Positions 13,302 to 57,751 of a stretch of 64,000 bases of DNA are shown here, piece after piece. How positions within the stretch are numbered: the stretch's first letter is position 1; each line of letters starts with the position of its first letter. The stretch lies in assembly GCA_047974525.1 (NCBI GenBank), contig JBKECJ010000007.1, forward strand, positions 36,508 to 100,507, given 5' to 3'. A model generated the notes under the pieces. The model did not search any database, was not told where the DNA came from, and saw nothing but the letters and a program-made list of their open reading frames with translations. A program made the position numbers and the translations under genes. This stretch comes from Candidatus Saccharimonadales bacterium. GTDB taxonomy: Bacteria > Patescibacteriota > Saccharimonadia > Saccharimonadales > Saccharimonadaceae.

Positions 13302-13302
13302 A

Positions 13303-14351: not shown

Positions 14352-14352
14352 A

Positions 14353-14640: not shown

Positions 14641-14643
14641 AAA

Positions 14644-16504: not shown

Positions 16505-16505
16505 A

Positions 16506-44285: not shown

Positions 44286-44327
44286 ACAATATCCTCTACA
44301 TGGCGCCTAATAACTTAATTATACCAC
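44286..44327 (-). promoter_or_regulatory. conserved late promoter/leader element, copy a
   Basis: Minus strand TGGTATAAT-TAAGT-TATTAGGCGCCATGTAGAGGA-TATTGT-ATG. Confidence 0.55.
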
Positions 44328-44328
44328 A

Positions 44329-44754
44329 TCACGATTCAAACGGCGACAAGAATGTGTTGATTTTTAGAGTTATCGTCTGACCGACATTCGTGACAGTAGC
44401 TCCATCTTGGTAGCTAATACTGTAATTTGGCTCGACGTGAATCCTCACTTGTCCCGTAGCTGGTCGATAAATATATCCAATCAAGAAATCCTCCGTAGTC
44501 TGTCCGTTGAAAGTATACGTCGCCGGAATGTTAAAGTTGGGAGTAATAACGCTTTTGCCAGGGTACTTGCTGGATGATATATTGAATCGCATGCTCGCGG
44601 ATTTTTGTCCGACAGCAGCGGTCGCCTCGAATGGAGAGATCGTGCTGCCAGCTGGTATCACGAACGTAGCGGGGATCGTCAGCGTCAACGCGCCTGAATC
44701 ATCATTTATCGTCGTAGCGTAATCGGTATTTATGTTGAATCTGCTAGGCTTCAT
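44329..44754 (-). CDS. phage tail/baseplate-associated protein
   Basis: Start MKPSRFNI (ATG 44754, 8-nt overlap with the upstream gene's stop). Confidence 0.45.
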   Translation of the reverse strand: MKPSRFNINTDYATTINDDSGALTLTIPATFVIPAGSTISPFEATAAVGQKSASMRFNISSSKYPGKSVITPNFNIPATYTFNGQTTEDFLIGYIYRPATGQVRIHVEPNYSISYQDGATVTNVGQTITLKINTFLSPFES

Positions 44755-45415
44755 CGGCGTAAATCCTGCAATAAAAATACCCACTCCCCGTCGCAAAGCT
44801 AACTTCGGAAGACGAGACATTCATAATTGAATTTGCGATACTTGAAGTGCCCAATATGTCATTATTCAGCTCTACCCATCTGTATACTCCCGAAGACACT
44901 TCGATGCGCTGCCATGCGTCCACCTGTGGCACGAATCCGAGGTTATGAGGCACGCTCACCTGTCCAGAAGTTGCGTCGGCAAAATTATCGAGATAAAGCT
45001 TCGGGTAGTTGAAATCGCTATTCAAGACAAACTTGTTCGCGCTCTTGTCTCTCGTAGGGGCTACAACTACATCTAAGGTCGTCGCCTCGTGGAAGACGCC
45101 CCAAAGTCGTAACACGAAGCTCGTGACGTTTGCCAACCCGTGGACGTAGACATTGGTTTCGTCCGATTCAACAGCGACCTGTTTCGCAATCTGCTGTATG
45201 TCGTTGACTGTTATGTTTGTAGGCCACGTAGTGTCCCAACTGTCGGACGACCAAGTGCCTTTAACGAATGGTATTGCGCCGAGTTCGTGAGGTATCGTCA
45301 GGCTGAATCCGCCCTGTGGGTTGCTTATGGTTCGTTCGTCTGGGAGCCAGATTATTTTATCCATCGGATAGTCGGAATTTATACCAAAATTGTTAATTCT
45401 AGCGGGAGCCGTCAT
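44744..45415 (-). CDS. phage tail/baseplate-associated protein
   Basis: 223 aa ORF in the tail module. Confidence 0.45.
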   Translation of the reverse strand: MTAPARINNFGINSDYPMDKIIWLPDERTISNPQGGFSLTIPHELGAIPFVKGTWSSDSWDTTWPTNITVNDIQQIAKQVAVESDETNVYVHGLANVTSFVLRLWGVFHEATTLDVVVAPTRDKSANKFVLNSDFNYPKLYLDNFADATSGQVSVPHNLGFVPQVDAWQRIEVSSGVYRWVELNNDILGTSSIANSIMNVSSSEVSFATGSGYFYCRIYADEA

Positions 45416-45708
45416 GTTGATTTTAATTCTTCAAGAACATTATAGCCGCTCTTAGCTATCCATAGTCCCGGACGCCTATCGTCTGGAGCCTGTCCGAAAA
45501 GAGCCGAAGGTAATCCGCTGGAGTCGTATACGAGCTCGCCGAAGTTTTTGTCTGGGAGCCTGCCTGAAATCAACGCGGACTGCCCGTTCCCGCCAGCGAT
45601 CCTCTTAGTAAACACTTCAGAGTCAAGCATTTGAAGGTTGCGATTTATGGCGGCAATCTGAGATGCCATATCCATATCCTCATTTAGCATCGTGAATCGA
45701 TTGGCCAT
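45412..45708 (-). CDS. small phage tail-module protein
   Basis: 98 aa; overlaps neighbours by 4 nt. Confidence 0.4.
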   Translation of the reverse strand: MANRFTMLNEDMDMASQIAAINRNLQMLDSEVFTKRIAGGNGQSALISGRLPDKNFGELVYDSSGLPSALFGQAPDDRRPGLWIAKSGYNVLEELKST

Positions 45709-47682
45709 TTAGCGAATCCTTTGCGCCTGCGCCGTTATCGTATGACTTTCAAGACCAAACGGCTCGAAGGCGGCGTGGTGTTTGTATCGAAGCTGCGCTC
45801 GACGGAATTCTCCGTAAACATAAGGCAACGTGGAGAGAATCGTGCCAGGCAACTCGTCCTCCCATCCGTAATCTTCGTACGATATTGAGTCTCCAGAAAA
45901 AACACTTACAGAGAAAGCGTAGTTTACTTTTGTGCTAAAGTCCTTAGCAAAGCCGCAATCCACTTTGTACTCTCTGCCCTCTTCGGAGATCTCTGGTCGC
46001 CATTTCGTAATTCGCTTTAATAGCGCCGGAGCGCCAAACCCTTGAAATATCGTGCCAAGCTCGCTCCGCAGGATGCCACCAATGTTGCTCGAGCCGGCAT
46101 CTGAATTTTCGCCCTTAAATATAGCCCCAACGCGACTAGAGCCTTGCAAGAACTCGCCATTAGGATTGTTGCGCGCGGCGGTAGCAGAGACGTATGCGTC
46201 CGTGTCGATAGACTCCCAAGCGCCCGTAATTAAATGGTAGACTAAGCACTTATTGTTTTCTACTGAGTCACCATCGGCGTAAAACACAAATAGCCTATTA
46301 TCGAAAAGTTCTGTGATGATTTGGCTTTTATTCTTAATAGCCGAATAGACGTCGTTGATTGTTTCGCCAGTAATATCTTTTTCGCTCGTTCCATTGAATA
46401 TGTATATTCCGTCATTTGATGGGTAGTATATGAAGTTCGTATCAGCCGATATGCTCTCTTGCGTAAAAGTGCCTTTCTGGGCTGCAGCGGAGTTCATGGT
46501 AAAAGTAGTCCAGTCATCGCCATAAAGTGCGTATTTGTTTCGTTTAGTCAAAAAGAAAAGCGTTCCGCCCAGCTCCACGAAAGCCGCTAAATCATCACCG
46601 CATTTTGGAGCCGGAATATCACTTACGAACGATTGTTCGACGTCAAATTTGTCATAAAGCGGTAAACGCTCGGAAGTAAAAACACCATTAGGATCATCGG
46701 CAGACATGTAAAACAAAAACGAGCCAAACATCATTACGTTCCTTGCAGATAAGTTCCGGCCGGAAGGATCGGCAATCTCTATTTCGGAGAAATCTTCCAA
46801 AAGAATAACTCTTGGATTACCGCCCGCGTCGCCTACATAGCGCACCGCGGCCACGGGGTCAGAATCATCATCTGGTACATATTGCGCTTGATTGAAGCGT
46901 ACCTTCCTAGTCCCAGTTGGGAGTTCGTCATTCTGGATCGTTGTTTCTCCGCTTTCGTCGGTTCGGTAAAGAATTCCATTCTGAGCGAAAAACGTCGTAA
47001 ATACCCCAGAATTATTTGCGACGAAAATACTATCGACGCCTCCGGCGGTCGCGCTAATCAGTCGATATAATGCTCCGTTATTGCCAAAATCCGTTGAGGT
47101 CTGTATGTAGAAATCTCCTGCGGCATCTGGCTGGAGCGAGAATTGCAAAATATAATTACCACCAGAAACAATATCTGGAGCGTTAACGAACTTAACTTCA
47201 ACCTGAGTCTGCATGGTAGATAAGTCTGGGTAGTTAATATTACTGTGTGCCACCAAATCTCCCCGCGAGCCATCTTCGTTCTGCGCGTATAGTCTTACGG
47301 AGACTACACCCTTAGAGTCTAAGTCTTTTCGACACATGAATTGTATAGCCCAAAGCCTAAAGTCACCTGAAGCCACTACGGGCACTTCTAGCGTCGAATC
47401 GCCCGATAATACATATTCTTCCAAGTTCTCATCCGACCATTGCTCTTGAGCCGTTGCGCGCCCCATAGCGTCGAACTTTACTGTGCTCCCGTGACGCGTC
47501 CTATACTTTCCAATCTTCTCCATGCGCATGTCCTGTGCAATAAGTAGGTCGTAAGGCTTGAGTTTTTGTTCCGGCGTATACGTTTTGATGCCGCCACTAA
47601 AATCTGCCGAGACGCTCTCAAACTTCCGACTCGATGATTTCGGGATAGTCTTTGATCGTTTAAATCGTGACTTTATGGCCAT
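45709..47682 (-). CDS. large phage tail/baseplate structural protein
   Basis: Start MAIKSRFKRSK (ATG 47682); ~657 aa; Asp/Gly/Ser-rich. Confidence 0.5.
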   Translation of the reverse strand: MAIKSRFKRSKTIPKSSSRKFESVSADFSGGIKTYTPEQKLKPYDLLIAQDMRMEKIGKYRTRHGSTVKFDAMGRATAQEQWSDENLEEYVLSGDSTLEVPVVASGDFRLWAIQFMCRKDLDSKGVVSVRLYAQNEDGSRGDLVAHSNINYPDLSTMQTQVEVKFVNAPDIVSGGNYILQFSLQPDAAGDFYIQTSTDFGNNGALYRLISATAGGVDSIFVANNSGVFTTFFAQNGILYRTDESGETTIQNDELPTGTRKVRFNQAQYVPDDDSDPVAAVRYVGDAGGNPRVILLEDFSEIEIADPSGRNLSARNVMMFGSFLFYMSADDPNGVFTSERLPLYDKFDVEQSFVSDIPAPKCGDDLAAFVELGGTLFFLTKRNKYALYGDDWTTFTMNSAAAQKGTFTQESISADTNFIYYPSNDGIYIFNGTSEKDITGETINDVYSAIKNKSQIITELFDNRLFVFYADGDSVENNKCLVYHLITGAWESIDTDAYVSATAARNNPNGEFLQGSSRVGAIFKGENSDAGSSNIGGILRSELGTIFQGFGAPALLKRITKWRPEISEEGREYKVDCGFAKDFSTKVNYAFSVSVFSGDSISYEDYGWEDELPGTILSTLPYVYGEFRRAQLRYKHHAAFEPFGLESHTITAQAQRIR

Positions 47683-48331
47683 ATGGCAACCTCGCCCTAT
47701 TACCGCTGTCGTTTTGTCGAGGCCCAAATCGCCTCTTCATATTCTCAATGACTTCGAGCTGCTTGTTTTCGTAAATTTGCGCAAAATCAAAGTTGTCTCG
47801 CCATTGCTCTACTCTCGCTAGCGCCCCGAGTACGAGGCATTCGCTAAATTCGTCCGGGATAACGGCCTTGTCTTCCGGCTTCACTAGCTGTTTTGGCTTC
47901 GCCAGGTACATATGTCGAACTTGCCATAGCTCAGGCAGCCCCCCAACCGTCGGCGCACAGGGCTTATTGTCGCGCGGCAGAGTAAAGAATACCTTATTCG
48001 AAAATACGGTATAGGTGTAGTTTCTATCCGGATACGCATATTCCGTAGATTTATCGAAATACTCGCGGAATGGCAGATACCTCAGCCTTCGAGGCATCGA
48101 GCCTTTCTTATTCACTAGTATCTGCTCAGTCTGCTGCCAATCGCGCGGCAGATCCAGCTCTCCCCCGCTTACCTCCACGGGATCGTCATAACGTTCCAAA
48201 AACATATATTCTGCTTCGCCCAGAATTTCATTTTGGCAATCATTCAAAAAATCGCCAATCTGACCATCGCCTAACTCGGGATCTTTCGCTTTGTTGCGTA
48301 CCCTCTCTGTGAGCTGCGCTAATGTAGTCAC
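47660..48331 (-). CDS. phage tail-module protein
   Basis: GTG start at 48331 preceded by GGAGA and conserved element (b); 223 aa. Confidence 0.5.
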   Translation of the reverse strand: MTTLAQLTERVRNKAKDPELGDGQIGDFLNDCQNEILGEAEYMFLERYDDPVEVSGGELDLPRDWQQTEQILVNKKGSMPRRLRYLPFREYFDKSTEYAYPDRNYTYTVFSNKVFFTLPRDNKPCAPTVGGLPELWQVRHMYLAKPKQLVKPEDKAVIPDEFSECLVLGALARVEQWRDNFDFAQIYENKQLEVIENMKRRFGPRQNDSGNRARLPYGHKVTI

Positions 48332-48372
48332 AATAATCTCCTACATGGCGCCTAATATTTTAATTATATCAC
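48332..48372 (-). promoter_or_regulatory. conserved late promoter/leader element, copy b
   Basis: Minus strand TGATATAAT-TAAAA-TATTAGGCGCCATGTAGGAGA-TTATT-GTG. Confidence 0.55.
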
Positions 48373-48484
48373 ACAGATATTACGATTTCCACTTCAATAC
48401 GCGTTGTTTTATGGTTATGCTGTATCGTTTCTGAGAATATGGTAAAATTAAACTAATTTAATCTCTTGGAGAGAAGGAAGCATA

Positions 48485-48793
48485 ATGGATAAAAAGTTAG
48501 TGCAGCCAAACAACAAAAAGACGCTAATAATCGCTGGGGCTTGTCTGCTCGCCGTCGCAATCCTATCCGCGACTGCGCTGATTATTGTCAATATGCTCAA
48601 TACGAAAGATGATGATTCTGCGCAGAGGCTTGAAGATGCGAAAAACTGCGTAGTATCGGCAGGCCAAAAATCTACTTCCGGATCATTTGCAGACGGTTCC
48701 TATACTCCGTCAGGCGCCAGCTACACACAAATTATCGCCGAATGCGCTGAAAAACATAGCGTCTCTTATGGCGACCTAACAGCCGAATTATAG
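48485..48793 (+). CDS. small membrane-anchored protein (counter-oriented cargo gene)
   Basis: 102 aa; N-terminal TM LIIAGACLLAVAILSATALIIV; RBS GGAGAGAAGGAAG; extended -10 TGGTAAAAT at ~48435-48443. Confidence 0.5.
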   Translation: MDKKLVQPNNKKTLIIAGACLLAVAILSATALIIVNMLNTKDDDSAQRLEDAKNCVVSAGQKSTSGSFADGSYTPSGASYTQIIAECAEKHSVSYGDLTAEL

Positions 48794-48805
48794 GGGTCGC
48801 ATCGT

Positions 48806-49267
48806 ATGAGCGAGGCTCCGAATGCTAAAAAGCACAACACAAAGGTCGCTACTTATCTCGTCGCAGGCTCACTTATAGTTTTAGGGTGCGCTGCCTTCGA
48901 CAGCCAAACTACTTGCGAAAGACAGCCCATTCCTTTCGCAACAGAAACAGTTCGTCTAGATAATCAGTATGCGGACTATAGGAGCGAGGCGGCAGGAATT
49001 AGCGGGGAAAAAGAAATCTGCCGACAGCACGGAAAAATAGTCTCCGAAAGAACGACAGCAAGTCCAGTTAGCAAAAAAATATATGTCGGCACGATCGCCA
49101 GGTCGCCAAGTGCAACATATACCCCATCTACCCCCAGTAGCCAATCTCCTCCGGCCACAACGCCGAGAGGGAGAACAGGGGCAATCTGTAATGATGGCTC
49201 ATCAAGTAAAGCAACGGGCTCTGGGGCGTGTAGCCACCACGGCGGCGTAGCGTATTGGACGTACTAA
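48806..49267 (+). CDS. putative secreted/lipoprotein with Pro/Ser/Thr-rich linker and Cys-rich C-terminus
   Basis: 153 aa; signal-like VATYLVAGSLIVLGCAAF; ...SPSATYTPSTPSSQSPPATTP... Confidence 0.5.
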   Translation: MSEAPNAKKHNTKVATYLVAGSLIVLGCAAFDSQTTCERQPIPFATETVRLDNQYADYRSEAAGISGEKEICRQHGKIVSERTTASPVSKKIYVGTIARSPSATYTPSTPSSQSPPATTPRGRTGAICNDGSSSKATGSGACSHHGGVAYWTY

Positions 49268-49268
49268 A

Positions 49269-49598
49269 ATGAAGTATGTATTATTTATCATTGGCGTAAT
49301 TGGGATTATCTGGTCGATTTGGATGCTCGGCGGAAAAATAGATAACCACAAAGAGACTGGGTTGAAAATTTGCGGAGATTTATATGCCTATGATGGAGTG
49401 TATCATGACAATGACTTTATTTGGTACGCAGAATGCTATAGTGAATATGACGATTCAGCAAACACTTGGTTCGGATGGTCGTTATTCTTGCTCATAATAG
49501 GCACGCCGGTCACGATATTGTCTGGAATTGCAATCCTGCGCTCCAAGAGCAACGCAAAAGCCACTCCCAAGCAAGTCAACGATTCGGTCACTGGTTAA
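49269..49598 (+). CDS. small two-TM membrane protein
   Basis: 109 aa; MKYVLFIIGVIGIIWSIWMLGG... and ...WSLFLLIIGTPVTILSGIAIL... Confidence 0.5.
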   Translation: MKYVLFIIGVIGIIWSIWMLGGKIDNHKETGLKICGDLYAYDGVYHDNDFIWYAECYSEYDDSANTWFGWSLFLLIIGTPVTILSGIAILRSKSNAKATPKQVNDSVTG

Positions 49599-52228
49599 TA
49601 GTTTGCGTAGATTGATTGCTCGTATCCGCTCAATAAATCGGATATCGTCGCAAGCTTTCTCTGCGCACTATCGCTAGTGTCAGTAAACTGTGGCAACATA
49701 TCCGCATAGCGTTTTGCATCACTCTCCGTCGCACCAAGATTCACGAAGTTCTTTATGATAGCCATTCCGAGGGAGTTTCGCAGGTCATTGTAGTAGCGCA
49801 CGTTTTCATCTAGCCCTCCAAATGTGTTCGTAAGCACTCCAGCTAGTCCCTGTCCGCCGCCCGCCTTTGCGAAAGCATCGGCAATTTGATTAAGGCTATT
49901 TCGGGAATTTTGTATGTTTTGGAGGGTTGTCTTATCACCTGCAGACAAATCGGCGCTCGCACCAGATTGACTTTTAGCCTGTCGTTCGTAGGTGTTTTTC
50001 AGCATGCTGTAAACTTCATTTAGCCTATCGTAGGCTACCGTATCTCCCATCATCATTGCGTTCATCATAGCTTGCTCTGTATCTTCAAGCCCCACTTGCT
50101 GCCCATTCGGGAGCGTATAAGTTGGGCTCGTCGCCATAGTGGTTGTTTGGCCAGAAGTGTATTGGCTCGGAAGACTATTCAGGGCACTCAAGATATTATT
50201 CGCGCTTTGCTCCGAAACTTGGGATGGGATCGATAAGTCGTTCGCATCGCCGCCCCGTGATTGGAATCCTGAGATGAGGTCTGCAATTCCATCATCAATG
50301 AGCGCATTTTGGCCATTCGCAGTATTGGCGATTGCGTTTTGCCCTTGACTCCGAGCAACACTCTGACGGACATTAGCGTTGATCATATTGCCTGGAGAAA
50401 CGACTACTCCGCTCTCTCCAAGCTTGAAGTCGCCGAATGGCGACCCGGCAGAAGAGCGAGCCTTCGGCATCTGCGCCGCGTCGCTTCCGTTGACGATATT
50501 TAAATTCCTGTCGACTCGAGCTTGTCTGACTGGCGTTAAATTCTGACCCTCGCGCATGGCTAACTTCAGTGCCTCTGATTTCGACAACGGGATATCCGTC
50601 CTTCCGGCCGTCCTTCCGCCATATGTCGTCGAGTTATTATCTGCCGAATCAATAAATATCATGGCACGCGTTGGTGTCTTGATTGACGAACGAAGCGACG
50701 ACATTGGAGTTCCGGAATCCACCGAGTTGACCATATCATCTACCCTTGCCTGCCATTTTTTGTTGTTCGGGAACATGTCGCGCAGCTGCTGAACTTGCGC
50801 AGCGTTATTATCAAGAGCGGCTCCCAATGCCCCAGTTCCTCTTACTGCCGAATCTAGATTATCACCGATATTACTTGCAATCTTGTATAGCTGATCGGCG
50901 TTGTAGGTTATGCCCCCACGCTCAAGTGTTCCTGCAGAATCGGCTGTATTGGCAAGTTTTTCAATTTGGCGTTGCAGCGTTAGCGCATCTACGCCTGATT
51001 TATTTCCAGATATACTGCTTGGCGTTTCATCAATTAGCTCGGATAATAGCCCGCTATACTTACGTATGCTCGAATTATTTTTCATACCGAGCTCTTTTAC
51101 TAGTCTATTAGCGTCAGTTAAATCGACGACACCCGCCCCACCTGCCGTGTCGCGGATAATCTTACTCCCAGCGTCCAACATGGCGTTCATGCCCTGCCTG
51201 ATGTCATCGGCATTGGTCAGCCCGAAGTCGCCAGCTACCGACGTAAAGGTCTCAGACGGTCTTACCCGATCATTGACGCGCTTGGGGACTACGCCGAACT
51301 GCTCGGTTATATCTTTTGCGATAGCGCGCTGCGCCTTTACCTGTTTATTATTCAGCTTGCCAACCCCCTCCGTAGTCGCTTGCGTAGTGCCGTTGACACC
51401 CCGAATCGTCCTTCCGCGCATCTTGTTAATAGCTTTTGAGCCAATACCGAGCGCGCCGCCCATTGCTCCTCCGGCGAGTGCGCCTCCACCAATCCCGCCA
51501 CCTAGGTTATTTAGTGCATCCTCAATTGAACCTCCAGACGCAAGAGTATTCCCAACGGCTGAAGTTCCGCCTCCAACTGCACCAGAAAGTGCACCGCGCC
51601 CGACATTTCCAAGAATCGTAGTTGGATCCGTAAGCTTTGTAGCGCCGCTTCCAAGAATGCTCGTTATCCCTTTGCCCCCGGCCTTTTCAGCAAGCTTCCC
51701 GACTCCTTTTAGCGCTCCGGCAGTCAAACCTTCAGCGGCCGCACCTGTCCCGGCACGCCCAAGAGCAGTGCCCAAATCTGCTTGATTCCCCTTTTCGTAA
51801 AATTCATCTCCAAATCCCTGAGCCGCACCACCAAATACGTTCCCAGCTATCGCTCCGGCTCCGGGAATGAAGCTTGCAGCGGTTCCCGCCGTTTTCATAG
51901 CGGCGCCTAAGTTCTTTGCGTATGCGTCTTTAGCATTATCTTCTCCGTAGACATTCGCGACATGGGCATCCTGCATAGCCTTAATCTCATCGGCATTTTT
52001 ACCCGAAGCGAGGCCACCTATAGTGTGGCCCATGCTTCCAAAAAACGAAGCTCCAGCCTGCCCGACAGGTTTAACTACGCTATTGAAAAAATCTACTAAC
52101 GGGTTGCCACTGCTTTGGCTTTGGGTGTTCTGGTTATATCGTCCAGCAAGAGTTTCCAGATCCGCGTTAACACCTGTGGGCGCAACCCATTTTTTGCCAC
52201 TTGGTATATATCCGCCATTTTCAAACAT
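49595..52228 (-). CDS. tape-measure-like / internal virion protein with Gly/Ala-rich repeats
   Basis: 877 aa, largest structural ORF. Central GGGALAGGAMGGALGIGS-type repeats, helical N-terminal third. Confidence 0.5.
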   Translation of the reverse strand: MFENGGYIPSGKKWVAPTGVNADLETLAGRYNQNTQSQSSGNPLVDFFNSVVKPVGQAGASFFGSMGHTIGGLASGKNADEIKAMQDAHVANVYGEDNAKDAYAKNLGAAMKTAGTAASFIPGAGAIAGNVFGGAAQGFGDEFYEKGNQADLGTALGRAGTGAAAEGLTAGALKGVGKLAEKAGGKGITSILGSGATKLTDPTTILGNVGRGALSGAVGGGTSAVGNTLASGGSIEDALNNLGGGIGGGALAGGAMGGALGIGSKAINKMRGRTIRGVNGTTQATTEGVGKLNNKQVKAQRAIAKDITEQFGVVPKRVNDRVRPSETFTSVAGDFGLTNADDIRQGMNAMLDAGSKIIRDTAGGAGVVDLTDANRLVKELGMKNNSSIRKYSGLLSELIDETPSSISGNKSGVDALTLQRQIEKLANTADSAGTLERGGITYNADQLYKIASNIGDNLDSAVRGTGALGAALDNNAAQVQQLRDMFPNNKKWQARVDDMVNSVDSGTPMSSLRSSIKTPTRAMIFIDSADNNSTTYGGRTAGRTDIPLSKSEALKLAMREGQNLTPVRQARVDRNLNIVNGSDAAQMPKARSSAGSPFGDFKLGESGVVVSPGNMINANVRQSVARSQGQNAIANTANGQNALIDDGIADLISGFQSRGGDANDLSIPSQVSEQSANNILSALNSLPSQYTSGQTTTMATSPTYTLPNGQQVGLEDTEQAMMNAMMMGDTVAYDRLNEVYSMLKNTYERQAKSQSGASADLSAGDKTTLQNIQNSRNSLNQIADAFAKAGGGQGLAGVLTNTFGGLDENVRYYNDLRNSLGMAIIKNFVNLGATESDAKRYADMLPQFTDTSDSAQRKLATISDLLSGYEQSIYANY

Positions 52229-53040
52229 TATCTAGTTGCCCCCACTCCCCCGAACGAGCCACCACCAGATTTATTCACTAGGGCAGGCAACCCAAGCATA
52301 GATCGTTGATGATTAGTAGCAGTACCATTGATAACAGCGCGTGCGTTTGCATCGCCAGCGCTCGCCATATCGTTCAATATGTCGTTCATGGTAATCGTCG
52401 AGGAGTTTAGGGCTACATAAGCATTCGCAGTTATCGGCTTGCCATTTGCATCATAAAAATAAAATCCATTCATGTCGTTACCCTTATTTGACCCCCTTTG
52501 AACTCGTCCGACCGTCTTCGTCTCAGCTGCCTTTTGCGTATTGTAGTAGTCGCTCAAAGCCTTAGCCTGAATTGAAGCGGCTTCTCTCTGAGCCTGTAGC
52601 TGCGCCTGACGATCAAGATCGGCTTGGTAGAGGCTCTGCGCATACTTATACTGATCGTTCGTCAGCGAGTTTAGTGTGTTCTCGAGGTCGAATTTGCGAT
52701 TATTATAATTCTGTCGAGTAGACTCCTGATTTGCGTTCAAATCGCGGTTTAGCTGTGTCACGGCAGGAGTATAACTATTCTTCTCGTAATTAGCGGCATA
52801 ATTCTGCCCAATATTACTCCAGCCAAGTCCACGGTTAGCCGCAGTAGACTGCGCGCCGTAGTTGTACTGGTCTTTTGCGCTATCGAGTCCACCTTTGTCT
52901 ATATTGTATTGCTCGCTCAAAGAGTTAAGGGCTCCCGTAAGCTGATCTGGGATAGCGTTAATCTGGTTTTGAATGCCCTGCTTTTGCGAAGCGTAAGCTG
53001 GGTTTGATTGTTCTATATATGTCTGAAGAGATGTCGCCAC
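52228..53040 (-). CDS. phage structural protein (Gln/Asn-rich)
   Basis: GTG start 53040 preceded by conserved element (c); 270 aa. Confidence 0.45.
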   Translation of the reverse strand: MATSLQTYIEQSNPAYASQKQGIQNQINAIPDQLTGALNSLSEQYNIDKGGLDSAKDQYNYGAQSTAANRGLGWSNIGQNYAANYEKNSYTPAVTQLNRDLNANQESTRQNYNNRKFDLENTLNSLTNDQYKYAQSLYQADLDRQAQLQAQREAASIQAKALSDYYNTQKAAETKTVGRVQRGSNKGNDMNGFYFYDANGKPITANAYVALNSSTITMNDILNDMASAGDANARAVINGTATNHQRSMLGLPALVNKSGGGSFGGVGATR

Positions 53041-53082
53041 GTAAAATCCTCTACATGGCGCCTAATACTTCTATTGTATCAC
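53041..53082 (-). promoter_or_regulatory. conserved late promoter/leader element, copy c
   Basis: Minus strand TGATACAAT-AGAAG-TATTAGGCGCCATGTAGAGGA-TTTTAC-GTG. Confidence 0.55.
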
Positions 53083-53173
53083 GCGCCATCAATTTTTCCT
53101 ATATTTTAATCGTCGAATCAGCTCGCTCAATTGTGCCCCCGAACGTATCGGGGACACTAGGAACGAGCTATCC

Positions 53174-54094
53174 TTATGCGGATTGAAGAATTGCCACGCC
53201 CTTCTTCTTGCCGTTCGCGTCAAACACCCAAGCGCCTGGGCGATACAACGCACGAAGCACCGCGCCGTCTGCACCCGCTGCGCGAGCCAAGTCGCCAGTA
53301 AGAATGCTGATGCTCTTAAGTTTGTTGACCGAACCCATCACGCGGTTATCCCACAGGACTGCCTTAACGTTAGGGGCTGCGGTAAACGCTGCCTGCGCAT
53401 ATGGGCTCGTTCCGGTGGTCGTCATAGTATTGAAGAACTCGTCCGGTACGATTTCTACATCGATACCGAGAAGCTGCTTCTGTTCGCCCGTACGCGCCTT
53501 GCCATCGTTGTATGACGGCGTATAGCTCGTAAACAGGTTCTTATTAAGCAATGGCTCTACGCTCGCCGCGATAAACAACGTCTGGTTTTTCGCATACGAC
53601 CTTTGCTGCTTGAGCGCCGCGGCCATCTCGCCAATGCCAGTAATGACGTCGGTCTCATCGTAAGTCACGACATTCGCGCCGCCATACGCCGTAGCGGCGT
53701 TGATAGCTGCGCCAAGCGCGATCTTATCAATGAGCGGGGTATACTGCTCCATAATCGCAACGTTCATGATGCGACCGCCCTCTTTCATCGCCCCAGCGGT
53801 GTCATCGATTTGAACCGCGGTAAGCATTTTGTTCGTTTCGTAGAAGAAGTCTACGTCTTTTCGCACGACGTCTGAGTTGGTCTCGGTAGGGTCGCCAAAG
53901 AGCGCGCTAGTGTGCCCAGCGATAAAGTCGCTAGTATCCACAGTACGGAAGTAGACGCTAGCTACGCCTCCATCCTCTTTGTATTCGCCACGACTCTTCA
54001 TGTGGACTAGAGTCTGTGATTCTTTCGTAAAGAGCTGGTCTAGCTCTTTCGCATATTTGGTTGCGTAATCAACATTACGGCTATCAGCTGCCAT
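53174..54094 (-). CDS. putative major capsid protein
   Basis: 306 aa, follows the scaffold-like acidic protein and portal. Call is based on gene order and size, not a recognised motif. Confidence 0.4.
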   Translation of the reverse strand: MAADSRNVDYATKYAKELDQLFTKESQTLVHMKSRGEYKEDGGVASVYFRTVDTSDFIAGHTSALFGDPTETNSDVVRKDVDFFYETNKMLTAVQIDDTAGAMKEGGRIMNVAIMEQYTPLIDKIALGAAINAATAYGGANVVTYDETDVITGIGEMAAALKQQRSYAKNQTLFIAASVEPLLNKNLFTSYTPSYNDGKARTGEQKQLLGIDVEIVPDEFFNTMTTTGTSPYAQAAFTAAPNVKAVLWDNRVMGSVNKLKSISILTGDLARAAGADGAVLRALYRPGAWVFDANGKKKGVAILQSA

Positions 54095-54140
54095 AAGTAT
54101 CCTTTCAAAAATTAGGGTTAAATCCGCAACCTAATTTCAA

Positions 54141-54872
54141 TTAGGCTTGATTGAAGCCATCAAGGAAGTCATCTTCTTTGTCGCCCGAACCGAACTGTTT
54201 ACTGTCGGTGGAGCCCCCAGCTAGCCTTTGGGCGCGCTGTTTGCTAGAGATTTCGGCCAATGTCTGTTTTCGTGTTTGCTCTTGGATGGTTTTAGGGTCT
54301 ACTGCCCCGCCACCAATCAGCTTATACACATCTTCCAAACTCATAAGACCGTTAACGACTAATTCGCCGCGCCTAATCTGCTGTCCGTTTGGGAGCATAG
54401 TAGGCTGCTGCAAAAACTCAGCCATCTTCGTTTCTTCCTCTGGAGTGAGATTAACCTTCGCCTTGAAATCCGCCGACATTTGGCGGTTTTTCATCATCTG
54501 CATGTCGCGAGCTATAATATCCATCTGCGTTTGTGGCGCAGTCTGCGTATTCTGAAGCTCTGTCTCTATGCGAGGCGCATTAGCCTGTCGCTGTTCATGC
54601 ATAGCCTTTTCTGCGTTTCGATACATCTTGGCCATTTTCTTGAAAGCGTCAGGATCTGAAGGGTCAAGATTCTTTTGAGTCTTTATGTATTCGACGTCTT
54701 CGTCAATCTCAGGTTCTGCCTGCTCGGCATCTTCGATCTCAGGTTCGTCTCCTGCATTAGTTTCTTGTTCTGCGGCAGTTATTTCTGCCGACTCTTCTGG
54801 CTGCTCTTGGGTTCCGGATGCCTCCGCTCCAATGCCTTGCCCGAATTCATCGGTTGTAGTTTCTTCTGTCAT
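54141..54872 (-). CDS. putative scaffolding protein
   Basis: 243 aa, strongly acidic N-terminus then helical Gln/Met/Lys-rich region, between portal and capsid. Confidence 0.4.
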   Translation of the reverse strand: MTEETTTDEFGQGIGAEASGTQEQPEESAEITAAEQETNAGDEPEIEDAEQAEPEIDEDVEYIKTQKNLDPSDPDAFKKMAKMYRNAEKAMHEQRQANAPRIETELQNTQTAPQTQMDIIARDMQMMKNRQMSADFKAKVNLTPEEETKMAEFLQQPTMLPNGQQIRRGELVVNGLMSLEDVYKLIGGGAVDPKTIQEQTRKQTLAEISSKQRAQRLAGGSTDSKQFGSGDKEDDFLDGFNQA

Positions 54873-54995
54873 GAACTCTCCGTTAAATTAAGTTGCTTTC
54901 ACGGGGATAACTCCCCGTAATCCTAGCCCTGGTCATGTTTTTAGGCACCATGTCCAAATTGGATTATTTAATAAAATCCTAGGCTAGGGTTACGA

Positions 54996-55283
54996 CTAGC
55001 TATCTGTGTCTTCGTTTGACTCCGCCTCCTTTCTCTCTTTTTCTTTGCGCTCGGCATCAATAGCGAAACAGTTTTCAATCGCAACTAGCACTCCCTTAAT
55101 TCCTGCGGCACGCTGGGTTTCTTTCAGACATTCAAATTCGGTCGTCGCGTCCATAGCCCGCTTAACTCGCGCATCGCGCATCTCTTCAAATTGTTCGCGG
55201 ATTAAAATCCCATCAGGGCTACTGAATACTCGCAAGAATGCACTTACGCGCGCATCCTGCTTCTGTCTTTCATCGGGCGTCAT
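54996..55283 (-). CDS. small phage head-module protein
   Basis: 95 aa; 4-nt overlap with the portal stop. Confidence 0.4.
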   Translation of the reverse strand: MTPDERQKQDARVSAFLRVFSSPDGILIREQFEEMRDARVKRAMDATTEFECLKETQRAAGIKGVLVAIENCFAIDAERKEKERKEAESNEDTDS

Positions 55284-57151
55284 ACGAGCGCTCCTTGGTC
55301 TTGAGCAGGGTCGCTACCGGACATTATTTGTTCGGATTGCTCCGGTGCAAGCTCATTCATCCCTTCCTGAGGAATAGCGAGTGCGCCGACGCCCAACTCT
55401 TGACCCTGTGCCGGAGGAGTGATCATCCGCTCAATCTCTTCCTCAGATGTGTCGACGAGCATTTTCGGCAAATAAATTCGTTTAATTTCTTCTAAGTTAT
55501 TGGTTGGATCCTGAATCAGTATTTGGTAGTCTCGACGGGCACTCTCGCGCTCGAGCTCTTTTGTGCTTTCGCGCGTAATCTTCAATTCGACCTTCGGAGT
55601 ATAGTTACCCATAAAGCGCGACATCTGAAGATCTTTCCATTCGATATTGTCTCCGTTAATAGTGCGGATTTTTACTATGTCGTCCGCGTATAGACGCATA
55701 ATTTCAAAAACGATTTTGCCTTCTTGGAAGAACAGGTCGTCAGCGATCGTTCGTGCCTTGAGTTGGATAATTTGCGATGCTTGGGCCATCTGCGCATTGA
55801 CTTCCGTAGCGGTCTGCTTCGTGGTCGAGCTGATACCCTTCACGACGCCATCAGTAGATAGGGCTTCGCGGATCTCCTGCTTAATGTTCGCTCTCTCTTG
55901 GAATGGCAGTCCAGAAATAGCTGGAGGGTTGTTCCATTGCATAGCGTTTGGCGGCACGGGCCACGTTTTGCCTGGGGCAGGGTCGAGGTTGTCGATTCTA
56001 GTGGCGTACTCTGGGTCAATTGATCGCTCTGGGTAGAGTGTATAGAGTTCAGCCTCGAGCGAGATCTCCGTAAAGTCGTTTAAGAGCTCCTGCTGGTCTT
56101 TTATGACGTCTACGCTAGATCCACCATAGACGAGCGAAGTATCTATCTCTGAGCGCCCTAGCGCGAACGGAATAATACCCTCGAGCGGCTCTTCGCTAGT
56201 TGGCTCTTCTGGAGCTACTGGCATTTGCGGCCACTCTTCCTCTGGGATTAACGCTAAGGCTTCCGCCGATGGCATATCGAGCATAGCCCTCTGGTACTGA
56301 GCTAGCGCCACCTCGTAGTCTGATCGTTCTTTTTCATATCGAAGCTTCGCCTGTGTCAAATAAGGATTCTCTATATCTTCAATAACTGTCGCCCTATTAG
56401 CCACAGTCGCCACACGTTTTTTAGTCCATATCTCAATAATCTCAACATGGTTCTTTGAGCTTGTCGCTCCTCCAGTTGACTGACCGAGGTTCATATCCTT
56501 AACAGTCTTATCCGACCGATACATATCATCCTCGCCGCTCGAGCCAGTAAGTTTGTCTAGGTTCTTATAGCGCCTTTCAAGCTCGCCAGTCTCAGGGTTC
56601 ACTATCTGTGCGGATTTTAGCTCCGTCTTGGTGGCGTGGTATCTGCGTCCTGCATAGCGCCAATTGCGCCACGAAGTCGCTCTCGGGTCTATGATCGTAT
56701 CTCGAATTGGGATTACCGTCTTACTGACGATCCCGTCAGAATATTCATAATAAAACACTCCATTGCCGACGATTTCCATGTTCTTGCCATTTTCGAGGTT
56801 CTTCTCCGCCCATCCGTCGCGCAGATAGAAATCGTCCATCATCTCAGACAAGATTTCAGTATCGCCGTCCTGTTGCGGATCGTCTGGCACGAAAACGAAT
56901 TTCGGAGAGCTCGAATATAACGCCGCGACAATAGTAATTATTGCCGAGCGCGTCATAGGCACGAACGTCTTAATGACGCCAGCGTGACGTCTCATTGTCC
57001 TTATGCCGTTATATAGTTTCCAGTTCTCGTCCCAAGTCGTATGGTATCGCTGGCTAGCATATAGCCAAGACTCTTCATACTTGTCTTGAACCCAAGTCAA
57101 GGCGTCGTCTTTTCCGTCTCCCCACTTCTTGTTTTCTTTAGAGTCAGCCAT
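55280..57151 (-). CDS. putative portal protein
   Basis: 623 aa, located after the large terminase as in most tailed-phage packaging modules. Confidence 0.5.
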   Translation of the reverse strand: MADSKENKKWGDGKDDALTWVQDKYEESWLYASQRYHTTWDENWKLYNGIRTMRRHAGVIKTFVPMTRSAIITIVAALYSSSPKFVFVPDDPQQDGDTEILSEMMDDFYLRDGWAEKNLENGKNMEIVGNGVFYYEYSDGIVSKTVIPIRDTIIDPRATSWRNWRYAGRRYHATKTELKSAQIVNPETGELERRYKNLDKLTGSSGEDDMYRSDKTVKDMNLGQSTGGATSSKNHVEIIEIWTKKRVATVANRATVIEDIENPYLTQAKLRYEKERSDYEVALAQYQRAMLDMPSAEALALIPEEEWPQMPVAPEEPTSEEPLEGIIPFALGRSEIDTSLVYGGSSVDVIKDQQELLNDFTEISLEAELYTLYPERSIDPEYATRIDNLDPAPGKTWPVPPNAMQWNNPPAISGLPFQERANIKQEIREALSTDGVVKGISSTTKQTATEVNAQMAQASQIIQLKARTIADDLFFQEGKIVFEIMRLYADDIVKIRTINGDNIEWKDLQMSRFMGNYTPKVELKITRESTKELERESARRDYQILIQDPTNNLEEIKRIYLPKMLVDTSEEEIERMITPPAQGQELGVGALAIPQEGMNELAPEQSEQIMSGSDPAQDQGALV

Positions 57152-57233
57152 TATAGCTCCATGAAACTAAAATTCACCAGCTTATGTGCCAAAAAAACAC
57201 GAGCGCATTTACTCGTGTTTTTCCGCGACGTAC

Positions 57234-57710
57234 TTATTCGCCAAGCTGGAGGGCAATCACGAACCCATCTTCGGGATTATCCCGAGATTTTCGTGACTTA
57301 CCTGCGTCGTCGCCTTCACCCAAATCATCCGCATCTTCGGATAACTTATTCATCTTCTTATCGCCCTTGCATTCCGCTTCGAGGCAATCAAGGAGCATAT
57401 TAGTCTGCTTTCGTACTGCGTCGATATTCAACTTCGGCTCCTTGCCGTCCTCTACGGAGTCGGCGATAAAATGTAGCAAGTCTTGATGCATCCGCTCTTG
57501 TTTGCTGTTAAATCTTACGATAGCCCGCGCAACTGTTCCGTAGTATGGGTTGTCACTTTCGTCGAGCTCTGCGTACCCTGCGCGCGCTTCGGCCTCGTCG
57601 GCGTCTAGATCGTGCAGGTTTTCAAGAAACCGAGCCTTTAAATCTCTACCTTCGTCATCATTCCATTGCCTTCCAGCATCCTTAGTTGTGGCGTCTGAGC
57701 CTTTTTGCAT
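57234..57710 (-). CDS. phage protein (acidic)
   Basis: Start MQKGSD (ATG 57710) preceded by AGGAGA inside conserved element (d). In-frame upstream ATGs lie inside the element. Confidence 0.45.
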   Translation of the reverse strand: MQKGSDATTKDAGRQWNDDEGRDLKARFLENLHDLDADEAEARAGYAELDESDNPYYGTVARAIVRFNSKQERMHQDLLHFIADSVEDGKEPKLNIDAVRKQTNMLLDCLEAECKGDKKMNKLSEDADDLGEGDDAGKSRKSRDNPEDGFVIALQLGE

Positions 57711-57751
57711 AGCAATTCTCCTCATGGCGCCTAATATATTCACTATACCAC
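57711..57751 (-). promoter_or_regulatory. conserved late promoter/leader element, copy d (variant)
   Basis: Minus strand TGGTATAGT-GAATA-TATTAGGCGCCATGAGGAGA-ATTGCT-ATG. Confidence 0.5.

What the first reader, a model, noticed from the sequence alone, without database searches (positions are those of the whole stretch)
44286..57751. Four copies of a conserved promoter + leader element precede late genes of the prophage
At 44286-44327, 48332-48372, 53041-53082 and 57711-57751 (minus strand) the same ~40-nt unit recurs immediately upstream of a start codon: extended -10 (TGGTATAAT / TGATATAAT / TGATACAAT / TGGTATAGT), 5 nt, then TATTAGGCGCCATGTAGAGGA (GGAGA variants), 5-6 nt, then ATG/GTG. There is no matching -35. 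The leader contains the GGCGCC palindrome. In three copies there is an AUG-UAG start-stop mini-ORF directly before the Shine-Dalgarno; copy d reads in frame instead. The unit divides the late region into at least four transcription units: tail fiber, tail proteins, the Gln/Asn-rich structural gene (52228-53040) with the tape-measure-like gene, and an acidic protein upstream of the portal. A nearly identical 5' UTR on every late mRNA suggests a dedicated activator or anti-terminator, an RNA-binding regulator, or a start-stop translational control element.
Basis: seen in the sequence. Interest (0 to 1): 0.7.

Follow-up and report, generated by a model that had tools for sequence, protein, structure and literature searches.

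The report
Late-mRNA 5′ tags paired to phage RNA
The four repeated promoter-plus-leader units are real, and their conserved leader is the base-pairing target of a previously undescribed structured RNA encoded between the portal and scaffold genes of this Saccharibacteria prophage, which points to an RNA-based switch that coordinates all late operons.

Summary
There are four exact copies of TATTAGGCGCCATG. Each lies 5 nt after a TGnTATAAT-type extended -10 and 15-16 nt before a start codon; none is expected by chance.

The host is a Saccharimonadales (TM7) bacterium. The prophage is podovirus-like, with an SU10-type portal and adaptor, so the 877-aa gene has no support as a tape measure.

About 90 related phage loci carry the same architecture at 2-5 late operons:
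- a host-type extended -10 promoter;
- a genome-specific 12-16 nt "tag" starting at the predicted +1;
- a hairpin in which the tag's 3' part pairs with the start-codon region.

Every lineage also carries an "anti-tag" complementary to its own tag. It sits 76-91 nt upstream of the scaffold-like gene, in a hairpin of a conserved multi-stem intergenic RNA (window 54988-54892, minus strand). Tag and anti-tag covary across lineages, including lineages with unrelated tags. Tag variation within a genome is limited to G·U-compatible transitions.

The best model is that the RNA loop pairs with the single-stranded 5' tail of late mRNAs, invades the inhibitory hairpin and frees the start codon. The direction of regulation is inferred, not shown. 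The GGCGCC palindrome and the AUG-UAG start-stop are not conserved.

The parts
44286..44326 (-). Unit a. Extended -10 TGGTATAAT at 44326-44318. Predicted TSS is the A at 44311. The tag AUUAGGCGCCAUG spans 44311-44299. The leader hairpin 44306-44279 is 10 bp and -13 kcal/mol, with the SD in the loop and the ATG (44285) in the 3' arm. It heads the 673-aa tail-fibre-like gene (42264-44285).
48332..48371 (-). Unit b. Extended -10 TGATATAAT at 48371-48363. Predicted TSS 48356. Tag 48356-48344. The hairpin 48351-48316 is 6+4 bp and -12.1 kcal/mol, with the SD and GTG (48331) in the loop and codons 2-3 forming the 3' arm. It heads the SU10-type adaptor gene (47660-48331) and the downstream tail/internal-protein genes.
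53041..53081 (-). Unit c. Extended -10 TGATACAAT at 53081-53073. Predicted TSS 53066. Tag 53066-53054. The hairpin 53060-53035 is 11 bp, -15.6 kcal/mol, z = -3.8, with GTG (53040) in the 3' arm. It heads the 270-aa gene (52228-53040) and the 877-aa gene (49595-52228).
57711..57750 (-). Unit d. Extended -10 TGGTATAGT at 57750-57742. Predicted TSS 57735. Tag 57735-57723. The local hairpin is weak or ambiguous, and the leader AUG is in frame 5 codons upstream of the ATG at 57710. It heads the operon: acidic 158-aa protein, portal (55280-57151), 95-aa protein, [anti-tag RNA], scaffold-like 243-aa protein (54141-54872), major capsid protein (53174-54094).
54892..54988 (-). Structured intergenic RNA element, 97 nt, MFE -37.7 kcal/mol, between the 95-aa gene and the scaffold-like gene. 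Outer stem P1 is 54988-54982 paired with 54929-54922. Hairpin A is 54979-54961, hairpin C is 54953-54933 and hairpin D is 54918-54901, followed by the conserved AGCAAC. It is homologous in position and architecture to the element found in about 50 non-redundant relatives.
54941..54953 (-). Anti-tag ACAUGGUGCCUAA, formed by the 5' arm and loop of hairpin C. It makes 13 contiguous pairs (12 Watson-Crick, 1 G·U) with the tag UUAGGCGCCAUGU of units a-c and 12 pairs with unit d. Duplex energy is -22.5 kcal/mol. It lies 81 nt upstream of the scaffold-like gene start (54872).

Best explanation
Each unit is a three-part cassette at the head of a late operon.

1. A host-type sigma-A promoter of the extended -10 class (TGTGnTATAAT, no -35). 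It should start transcription at the A that lies 7 nt downstream.
2. A genome-specific 5'-terminal tag. Here it is 5'-AUUAGGCGCCAUG(U); in most relatives it is AAUGGCGRUGYG.
3. A hairpin in which the 3' part of the tag pairs with the start codon or the first codons of the first cistron. The first 6-8 nt of the mRNA stay single-stranded.

The tag is recognised by an RNA, not a protein. This is a conserved multi-stem RNA encoded inside the portal-scaffold-capsid operon (window 54988-54892). One of its hairpins displays, in its loop and 5' arm, a sequence complementary to the tag.

Proposed mechanism:
- The loop pairs first with the single-stranded 5' tail of a late mRNA.
- Pairing then spreads into the 5' arm of the leader hairpin.
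- This releases the Shine-Dalgarno and start region, so the first cistrons of all late operons are translated only once the capsid-operon RNA is present. Those cistrons encode the portal or acidic protein, the 270-aa protein, the adaptor and the tail fibre.

This is anti-antisense activation, acting in cis on its own operon and in trans on the others.

Shown here:
- the repeat and its family-wide conservation;
- the host-like promoter type;
- covariation of the leader hairpin;
- covariation within the structured RNA;
- tag/anti-tag covariation.

Inferred:
- the TSS;
- that the pairing happens in vivo;
- that its effect is activation rather than repression or processing.
For: Family-wide architecture:
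- In 85 related loci (1.15 Mb), ATGGCGRTG occurs 154 times on the gene strand and 18 times on the other strand. Of these, 129 sit exactly 6-8 nt after a TAnnnT, mostly TGTGnTATAAT.
- The logo shows a conserved block from -2 to +11 and nothing conserved upstream of -18.
- Host promoters in the window are also TGnTATAAT but lack the tag.
- Untagged phage promoters drive short non-coding units in L074.
- In IMG/VR, the complete element occurs only in contigs of this phage family.

Leader hairpin:
- All 86 unique clade-1 leaders fold into a hairpin that starts at tag position 8-10 and contains the start codon.
- Swapping the 5' arms between instances raises the mean MFE from -10.5 to -7.4 kcal/mol. 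The median rank of the native arm is 0.07.
- Tagged leaders average -11.3 kcal/mol against -6.7 for 897 other gene starts (p = 1.5e-22). Only 9% of them have a 4-nt SD core.
- The window's hairpins are -12 to -15.6 kcal/mol. Each of the four downstream start regions pairs with the invariant leader better than 83-99% of other start regions in the window.

Anti-tag:
- In 52 non-redundant genomes, the best complement to the genome's own tag within the 190 nt upstream of the scaffold-like gene is mostly 9-13 contiguous pairs. In all but two automated mis-picks it lies at a constant -76 to -91 nt.
- This holds for the window (13 bp), for L157 (the tag C->U change is matched by an anti-tag G->A change) and for L156 (CACGGAGCCT pairing with AGGCUCCGUG).
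- It also holds for the distant relatives L154 and L155, and for L148 and L144, whose tags are unrelated in sequence.
- Across 13 lineages, cognate duplex energies sum to -258 kcal/mol. Permuted pairings give -148 ± 15, and 0 of 20000 permutations reach the observed value.
- All 44 tag copies in 34 clade-1 genomes keep a standard pair at the two variable tag positions. Position 8 is A-U 28, G·U 14, G-C 2. Position 11 is C-G 32, U·G 7, U-A 5. There are no mismatches.

Structured RNA:
- 15 of 19 consensus pairs show compensatory changes.
- 95.4% of cells are paired, against 31-39% for slid controls. The covariation score is 0.651 against 0.05-0.10, and 0 of 500 shuffles reach it.

Geometry:
- The anti-tag covers the single-stranded tail plus the 5' arm of the leader hairpin, but not the SD or start codon. 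Pairing and the inhibitory hairpin are therefore mutually exclusive.
Against: - There is no transcript data. The TSS, the existence of a discrete or processed RNA, and in vivo pairing are all unverified.
- Unit d in the window, and the portal copies in L156 and L158, lack a convincing inhibitory hairpin.
- Individual window hairpins are only modestly better than shuffles (z = -1.5 to -3.8). They are also only modestly better than other start regions (fractions 0.014-0.174).
- The element has no promoter of its own and no U-tract after hairpin D. It would have to act as part of a long translated mRNA, or after processing.
- The direction of regulation is inferred from geometry alone. The same pairing could instead repress translation, trigger cleavage, or serve to regulate the scaffold and capsid genes downstream of the anti-tag.
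- In a few genomes (L151, L145, L158, L086) the anti-tag match is weaker.
Confidence: 0.55

Rival explanations
1. The RNA-RNA pairing is the same, but the outcome is the opposite or different. Binding of the anti-tag RNA to the 5' ends of late mRNAs would repress the low-copy first cistrons. Alternatively, it would create a duplex that is cleaved (for example by RNase III) or that changes mRNA stability, setting the ratio of portal and tail proteins to capsid proteins.
For: - The tag/anti-tag covariation does not say which way regulation goes.
- Tagged first cistrons encode low-copy virion parts (portal, adaptor, fibre). The high-copy scaffold and capsid genes are internal and have strong SDs.
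- The known phage RNA c4 of P1 represses its target (PMC8546580).
Against: - The pairing region stops short of the SD and start codon and overlaps the arm that sequesters them. Pairing should therefore expose the start site rather than block it.
- An inhibitory hairpin would be redundant if the RNA were a repressor.
- The 12-13 bp duplex is short for RNase III (established knowledge, not tested here).
Confidence: 0.2
2. The direction of control is reversed. The abundant 5' tags of late mRNAs would act on the intergenic element, remodelling it to control translation, processing or stability of the scaffold-capsid part of the portal operon. The pairing could also tether late mRNAs together.
For: - The anti-tag sits at a fixed 76-91 nt upstream of the scaffold-like gene in all lineages.
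- It sits inside a covarying multi-stem structure followed by a stable hairpin D and a conserved AGCAAC.
- Pairing must open hairpin C.
Against: - The scaffold gene has its own strong, apparently unpaired SD about 60 nt beyond hairpin D.
- This model does not explain why the tag also forms a hairpin with the start codon of its own first cistron.
Confidence: 0.1
3. The tag is a DNA site for a phage protein. This could be a repressor that silences the strong late promoters in the prophage, like the asymmetric, orientation-dependent stoperators of cluster A mycobacteriophages. It could instead be a loading or pause site for an RfaH/Q-like factor. In that case the complementarity to the anti-tag would be incidental, or a DNA inverted repeat.
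For: - The tag is asymmetric, oriented with transcription, and fixed to the nucleotide relative to the -10.
- The promoters are consensus host-type and would need silencing in a lysogen.
- A weak HTH protein is encoded just upstream of the packaging genes (61076-61333).
- Stoperators are 13-mers with these properties (PMC9283540).
- From memory only, GGCGGTGCG resembles the ops element GGCGGTAGnnTG.
Against: - Tag variation is restricted to changes that keep G·U or Watson-Crick pairing with the anti-tag. G·U pairs are common in tag/anti-tag duplexes and leader hairpins. This is an RNA signature, not a DNA one.
- No copies lie at early promoters or elsewhere.
- No conserved early regulator is shared across the family.
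- No NusG/KOW or Q-like domain was found.
Confidence: 0.05
4. Translation of a mini-ORF is the functional core. This would be the AUG-UAG start-stop in the window, or a near-leaderless AUG-GCG-RUG mini-ORF in relatives. Ribosomes loaded there would melt the hairpin and re-initiate at the nearby true start.
For: - AUG-UAG or GUG-UAG occurs in 6 of the 12 clade-2 and clade-3 leaders. Five of the other six are in frame with the main ORF or are its annotated start.
- In clade 1 the transcript would begin A-AUG-GCG.
- Early stops are mildly enriched in that frame: 20 of 40 against 13 of 40 in another frame.
Against: - The position homologous to the window's AUG is GCG in 42 of 58 clade-1 representatives.
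- Half of the clade-1 mini-ORFs run 10 to more than 60 codons into the main ORF out of frame.
- The leader AUG is explained more simply as part of CAUG, the complement of the true start region it pairs with.
- Distant relatives have tags with no start codon at all.
Confidence: 0.05

Closest known systems
Anti-antisense translational activation by base-pairing RNAs (S. aureus RNAIII-hla, E. coli DsrA-rpoS, Listeria Rli27; PMC8383071, PMC5766208)
   Same: A 5' UTR hairpin occludes the ribosome-binding or start region. The regulator RNA is complementary to the upstream arm, so pairing would free the start site. Pairing would begin between a hairpin loop and a single-stranded region.
   Different: - The regulator is not a free-standing sRNA gene. 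It is a structured segment inside a late structural operon.
- Its targets are the extreme 5' ends of several operons, including its own.
- It is phage-encoded in a CPR host.
- Activation is inferred, not shown.
Phage P1/P7 c4 antisense RNA (and, from my own knowledge, the P4 CI RNA)
   Same: - It is a phage-encoded structured RNA that is co-transcribed with protein genes.
- It acts through short loop sequences complementary to mRNA sites.
- From my own knowledge, P1/P7 specificity is set by covarying changes in the RNA and its targets. Here, tag and anti-tag covary in the same way.
   Different: - c4 is a 77-nt processed repressor of ant in an immunity operon (PMC8546580, citing Citron and Schuster 1992). 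It acts on an internal site downstream in the same transcript.
- Here the targets are the 5' termini of 3-5 late operons, and the predicted effect is activation.
- Processing of this element is unknown.
[quoted passage not shown]
   Same: Late genes are driven by TGnTATAAT-type promoters that lack a -35 element.
   Different: Here the host's own promoters are of the same class, so the promoter type alone cannot give late specificity. The distinguishing feature is the transcribed tag.
Repeated short motifs near gene starts in mycobacteriophages: cluster A stoperators (PMC9283540) and cluster K start-associated sequences (SAS/ESAS, PMC3203893)
   Same: These are genome-specific, asymmetric motifs of about 13 nt. 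They occur in many copies, all in one orientation, next to gene starts. SAS are suspected to act in translation initiation.
   Different: - Stoperators are protein-bound DNA sites scattered through the genome.
- SAS include the SD and are not tied to promoters.
- Neither has a complementary RNA partner.
- Here the tag is fixed at +1 of a promoter and covaries with an anti-tag.
Phage Mu Com-mom translational activation (own knowledge)
   Same: A hairpin sequesters the start region, and a specific recognition sequence lies immediately 5' of it. Binding at that site opens the hairpin.
   Different: Com is a zinc-finger protein that acts on a single gene. No Com-like protein is present here: none of the small ORFs has paired CxxC motifs. 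The partner found is an RNA.

Membership tests
Sigma-70/sigma-A extended -10 promoter | TG dinucleotide one base upstream of a TATAAT-like hexamer | tested here: met
   All four window copies are TGnTA(T/C)A(A/G)T. In 58 family representatives -15 G is 56/58, -16 T is 57/58, and TATAAT is near-invariant.
Sigma-70/sigma-A extended -10 promoter | Functions without a -35 element, with transcription starting about 7 nt downstream of the hexamer | not testable with these tools
   No conserved -35 is seen. The invariant A lies 7 nt downstream, preceded by T in 44/58. No TSS data are available.
Anti-antisense (hairpin-opening) riboregulation | An intramolecular structure in the 5' UTR occludes the SD or start codon | tested here: met
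   The predicted hairpin encloses the start codon in 64 of 64 clade-1 leaders and in window copies a-c. Selection for the pairing is shown by the arm-swap test. Copy d is ambiguous.
Anti-antisense (hairpin-opening) riboregulation | The regulator RNA is complementary to the upstream arm of that structure, not to the SD or start codon | tested here: met
   The anti-tag pairs with the 5' tail plus the 5' arm and ends before the SD. Covariation is shown.
Anti-antisense (hairpin-opening) riboregulation | Pairing increases translation of the target | not testable with these tools
   This needs toeprinting or reporter assays.
P1/P7 c4-type processed antisense RNA | A small RNA excised from the operon transcript (RNase P-dependent) | not testable with these tools
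   The element has a closed outer stem and a flanking hairpin, but there are no transcript data. ARAGORN finds no tRNA-like gene there.
P1/P7 c4-type processed antisense RNA | The target sites lie downstream in the same operon, covering an RBS, and the effect is repression | tested here: not met
   The targets are the 5' termini of this and other operons. The pairing excludes the RBS.
Cluster A mycobacteriophage stoperators | Asymmetric 13-bp DNA sites bound by the immunity repressor, found at promoters and scattered in intergenic spaces | tested here: not met
   The sites occur only at +1 of late promoters. Sequence variation follows RNA wobble rules. Protein binding is not testable here.
Start-stop / minimal uORF element | A start codon immediately followed by a stop, conserved upstream of the regulated gene | tested here: not met
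   It is present in window copies a-c only. It is absent from copy d and from most relatives.
Any Rfam family | A match to a curated covariance model | tested here: not met
   Only tRNA-Leu is found in 38000-64000 at E <= 1.

The most novel reading that the evidence does not exclude
A whole family of Saccharibacteria podophages would have no protein late activator. An operon-embedded, cloverleaf-like RNA would serve as the master late switch. Its loop recognises a genome-specific 'address tag' at the 5' end of every late-operon mRNA and unlocks translation of SD-poor, hairpin-closed first cistrons. Tag and anti-tag co-evolve as a private code, which could also make co-infecting relatives regulatorily incompatible.
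Probability: 0.4. Interest if true: 0.9.

Novelty: new variant of a known kind. Interest (0 to 1): 0.8.

Why it matters
Almost nothing is known about gene regulation in phages of Saccharibacteria or other CPR bacteria.

- This gives a concrete, testable RNA-RNA circuit that links all structural operons of an abundant phage family found in oral, rumen and gut samples.
- It describes a structured RNA with strong covariation that has no Rfam match.
- It explains why late mRNAs of one genome share an identical 5' end while relatives differ.
- If activation is confirmed, it would be a phage late-gene switch built from RNA rather than from a sigma factor, activator or antiterminator.
- It would also provide orthogonal tag/anti-tag pairs of natural origin.
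- For annotation, the tag plus extended -10 marks late operon starts and true start codons in these phages.

Tried and rejected
- **Close relatives by DNA.** Megablast of 42-58 kb against INPHARED phages found nothing. The exact 14-mer scan of IMG/VR gave 68 loci, and the 25-mer promoter-plus-tag pattern in JGI metagenomes gave 40. All were single, context-free chance hits. The single-protein portal search in IMG/VR found nothing; the alignment-based search worked.
- **Sequence beyond the window end.** Only one identical 27.7-kb Logan contig is indexed, and it ends at the same place. The early and lysogeny region could therefore not be read.
- **Protein regulator hunt.** Pfam and PHROG scans of about 50 window and relative proteins found no sigma factor, ArpU/RinA, NusG/KOW, Q-like, Com-like or S21-like protein. 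The only lead was a weak HTH. No small zinc-finger protein is present. No early gene is conserved family-wide.
- **The conserved 95-aa protein after the portal.** It has only one homologue retrievable by the word index, so no structure prediction was attempted.
- **The 877-aa and 672-aa proteins.** Neither has a PDB sequence match.
- **Leaderless or uORF coupling, and frameshifting.** Rejected as the core function.
- **GGCGCC as a dimeric-protein palindrome.** Rejected, because it is not conserved.
- **5' stabiliser hairpin.** Unlikely, because 6-8 nt remain unpaired at the 5' end.
- **Terminator or attenuator.** There is no U-tract after the leader hairpins.
- **Host-wide motif.** Absent from 38 kb of host sequence that includes ribosomal-protein and EF-Tu operons.

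Full report
**1. The observation.**
- The 14-mer TATTAGGCGCCATG occurs exactly four times, against 0 in 100 shuffles.
- The whole unit also occurs four times against 0 expected. That unit is TGnTAnAnT, then 5 nt, then TATTAGGCGCCATGWRGRRR.
- Each unit ends 5-6 nt before a start codon (44285 ATG, 48331 GTG, 53040 GTG, 57710 ATG).
- A fifth near-copy at 16285 has one mismatch. It lies inside an rplD-like ORF of the ribosomal-protein operon that fills 1-17150, and it has no promoter. It is a coding coincidence.

**2. Context.**
- The portal protein is identical to one from a Candidatus Saccharimonadales MAG, so the host is TM7/CPR.
- The prophage lies next to tRNA-Leu(UAA) at 38514-38588 and runs past the window's end.
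- It is podovirus-like. It encodes an SU10-type portal (55280-57151), an SU10-type adaptor (47660-48331), TerL (58404-59783), a major capsid protein (53174-54094) and an internal-virion-protein-like 672-aa gene.
- The 877-aa ORF has no detectable relatives in Pfam, PHROGs or the PDB. Calling it 'tape-measure-like' is therefore unsupported.
- Host promoters in the same window are also TGnTATAAT, and some have a TTGACA -35. None is followed by the leader motif.

**3. Relatives.**
- Portal-based searches recovered 9 loci in genomes, nearly all of them Saccharibacteria.
- They also recovered 76 loci in IMG/VR and the three closest relatives through exact-protein look-ups (L156-L158).
- In these 1.15 Mb, ATGGCGRTG occurs 154 times on the gene strand and 18 times on the other strand. 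Of the 154, 129 are preceded by a -10 hexamer at 6-8 nt, mostly TGTGnTATAAT at exactly 7 nt. Many follow a terminator hairpin and T-run directly.
- A redundancy-reduced logo of 58 sites shows a conserved block from -2 to +11 (TA|ATGGCGRTGYG). This includes positions that were not part of the search pattern: -1 A is 58/58 and +11 G is 56/58. Nothing is conserved upstream of -18.
- The block differs between lineages but is uniform within a genome:
  - ATTAGGCG(C/T)CATG in the window and L157;
  - AAAGGCTCCGTG, five copies, in L156;
  - AATTGGCG(N)TGCG and AAAGGCGGCGCG in other subclades;
  - unrelated sequences in distant relatives, for example ATATACAGAGTAAGTC (twice) in L154 and AATACAGGATAGGTGAG (twice) in L155.
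- The 5-nt spacer between the -10 and the tag varies between copies of one genome. The identity is therefore maintained by selection, not by recent gene conversion.
- A pattern scan of IMG/VR shows that the full element (TG, tag and YG together) occurs only in contigs of this family. The other matches are partial chance hits.
- Uniformity within a genome combined with divergence between genomes implies a partner encoded by the genome itself.

**4. The leader hairpin.**
- Every clade-1 leader folds into a hairpin that starts at tag position 8-10, and the start codon lies inside it. Obvious compensatory changes are seen:
  - GCGU/ACGC, GAGU/ACUC and GUGUC/GACAC in one gene family;
  - GCGUU/AACGC and UGUUC/GAACA in the portal leaders.
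- Replacing each leader's positions 8-16 with those of other instances weakens folding from -10.5 to -7.4 kcal/mol on average. The native arm ranks at a median of 0.07.
- Tagged leaders are far more structured than 897 other gene starts in the same phages (-11.3 against -6.7 kcal/mol, p = 1.5e-22). They rarely have an SD core (9%), whereas internal genes visibly do.
- In the window, copies a, b and c form 10-bp, 6+4-bp and 11-bp hairpins (-13, -12.1 and -15.6 kcal/mol). Copy d is ambiguous.
- The four different downstream start regions each pair with the invariant leader better than most other start regions in the window (fractions 0.058, 0.145, 0.014 and 0.174).
- In L157, GGCGCC has become GGCGUC, which keeps a G·U pair with the start region. 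The palindrome is therefore incidental.

**5. The partner: an anti-tag in a structured RNA.**
- I searched each genome for complements of its own tag. This revealed a site on the sense strand about 2.2 kb downstream of the portal-operon tag.
- When anchored on the scaffold-like gene, the best complement lies at a constant -76 to -91 nt in nearly all of 52 non-redundant genomes, mostly with 9-13 contiguous pairs.
- In the window it is ACAUGGUGCCUAA (54953-54941), which makes 13 pairs with UUAGGCGCCAUGU.
- The changes are compensatory:
  - window GCC paired with GGU, against L157 GUC paired with GAU;
  - clade-1 GAUGCG with CGCAUC, GGUGCG with CGCGCC or GCACC, GUUGCG with CGUAAC, and GAUGUG with CACAUC;
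  - L156 AGGCUCCGUG with CACGGAGCCU.
- The distant relatives with unrelated tags also carry matching anti-tags at the same place. L154 has ACTTACTCTGTA, L155 has CCTGTATT, L148 has CACCTACCC and L144 has CACCAACCCCAA.
- Over 13 lineages, cognate duplex energies sum to -258 kcal/mol. Permuted pairings give -148 ± 15, and 0 of 20000 permutations reach the observed value. The window tag scores -22.5 kcal/mol with its own element and -15.5 or weaker with the others.
- The two degenerate tag positions (R, Y) are the ones that G·U wobble tolerates against a single anti-tag. All 44 tag copies in 34 genomes keep a standard pair there, with no mismatch. This is an RNA-level signature. It argues against a DNA-binding protein or a DNA inverted repeat.

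**6. The element carrying the anti-tag.**
- The intergenic region between the small gene that follows the portal and the scaffold-like gene folds, in all lineages, into the same architecture:
  - an outer stem P1 enclosing an AU-rich hairpin A;
  - usually a GC hairpin B with an AAGG-like loop;
  - hairpin C, whose 5' arm and 6-11-nt loop form the anti-tag;
  - a stable hairpin D and a conserved AGCAAC ahead of the scaffold gene's strong SD.
- RNAalifold on 22 diverse members recovers P1, B and C, with compensatory changes in 15 of 19 pairs.
- The explicit count gives 95.4% paired cells against 31-39% for slid partners, and a covariation score of 0.651 against 0.05-0.10. None of 500 shuffles reaches it.
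- The window's element spans 54988-54892, is 97 nt long and folds at -37.7 kcal/mol. It has P1, A, C and D.
- It has no Rfam match and no tRNA call.
- It has no extended -10 in front of it and no U-tract after hairpin D. It is therefore part of the portal-scaffold-capsid mRNA, or is processed from it.

**7. Mechanism.**
- The loop of hairpin C is complementary to the single-stranded 5' tail of the late mRNAs. Its 5' arm is complementary to the 5' arm of the leader hairpin.
- The paired region ends before the SD and start codon. Tag/anti-tag pairing and the start-sequestering hairpin are therefore mutually exclusive.
- The simplest reading is anti-antisense activation, of the kind described for RNAIII-hla and DsrA-rpoS (PMC8383071, PMC5766208).
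- It would act in cis on the portal operon once the element is transcribed, and in trans on the other late operons.
- The same three-part logic recurs in L154 with completely different sequences.
- Untagged extended -10 promoters in front of short non-coding units in L074 show that the tag is not a general promoter feature. This is consistent with a role tied to protein-coding late operons.
- The direction of regulation, processing of the element, and the TSS all remain inferences. The rivals are repression or cleavage, control of the scaffold and capsid genes by the tags, a protein operator, and a start-stop or uORF mechanism. They are listed with their evidence in the rival explanations.

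**8. Comparison and novelty.**
- The promoter class is ordinary for this host, and it is known for phage late genes elsewhere (P23-45, PMC3351154).
- Genome-specific repeated motifs near gene starts are known in mycobacteriophages: stoperators (PMC9283540) and SAS (PMC3203893). These are DNA-protein sites or motifs of unknown function, and they have no RNA partner.
- A structured phage RNA acting through complementary loops is known from P1 c4 (PMC8546580). c4 is an immunity repressor that acts on an internal site.
- I found no description of an operon-embedded RNA whose loop matches the 5' termini of all late operons. I also found no description of any regulatory RNA in Saccharibacteria phages.
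- I therefore rate this a new variant of a known kind (base-pairing riboregulation), with high interest.

Noticed in passing
L074:13900-15200: A relative phage carries about six tandem short units of 150-230 nt between its capsid gene and the next tagged operon. Each has a TTTTTGTGGTATAAT-type promoter, a GC-rich structured RNA and an intrinsic terminator, with no ORF. There is no Rfam or tRNA match. This may be a cluster of phage non-coding RNAs, and their promoters lack the tag.
   Followed up: partly
window 48485-49598 (+): Three small membrane or secreted proteins (one with DUF3761) are encoded antisense to the late genes, between the 877-aa gene and the adaptor operon. They have their own TGGTAAAAT promoter at 48440, divergent from tagged promoter b. 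This looks like a moron insertion.
   Followed up: no
window 38915-39880 (+): The 321-aa ORF next to tRNA-Leu, where an integrase would be expected, has no integrase or any other Pfam domain. The integrase and the lysogeny module are presumably beyond the window's right end.
   Followed up: no
window 57785-57807 and 58018-58188 (+): A 56-aa hydrophobic peptide gene lies antisense between the terminase module and tagged promoter d. It is followed by a bidirectional terminator hairpin directly upstream of that promoter.
   Followed up: no
window 44286-57751 compared with L156:1-17000: The tagged operons appear in a different order in the window (portal module, 270/877-aa module, adaptor module, fibre) than in L156 (adaptor module, 248/840-aa module, portal module, fibre). 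The tagged promoters therefore delimit modules that have been reshuffled as units.
   Followed up: partly
window 53077-53090: Just upstream of, and overlapping, the -10 of unit c the sense strand reads GATGGCGCGTGATA. This resembles the clade-1 tag ATGGCGRTG with a 2-nt insertion. It may be a relic or a coincidence.
   Followed up: no
window 54996-55283 (-) and 58191-58400 (-): Two small proteins of unknown function stand out. A 95-aa protein translationally coupled to the portal is present in 36 of 38 long loci. A very basic 69-aa protein just after TerL is present in about 21 loci. The first is the only non-structural-looking core gene of the family.
   Followed up: partly
window 16285-16298 (-): A one-mismatch copy of the 14-mer lies inside the ribosomal protein L4 gene, where it codes the conserved NPIWRHGG segment. 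It is a chance match with no promoter context.
   Followed up: yes
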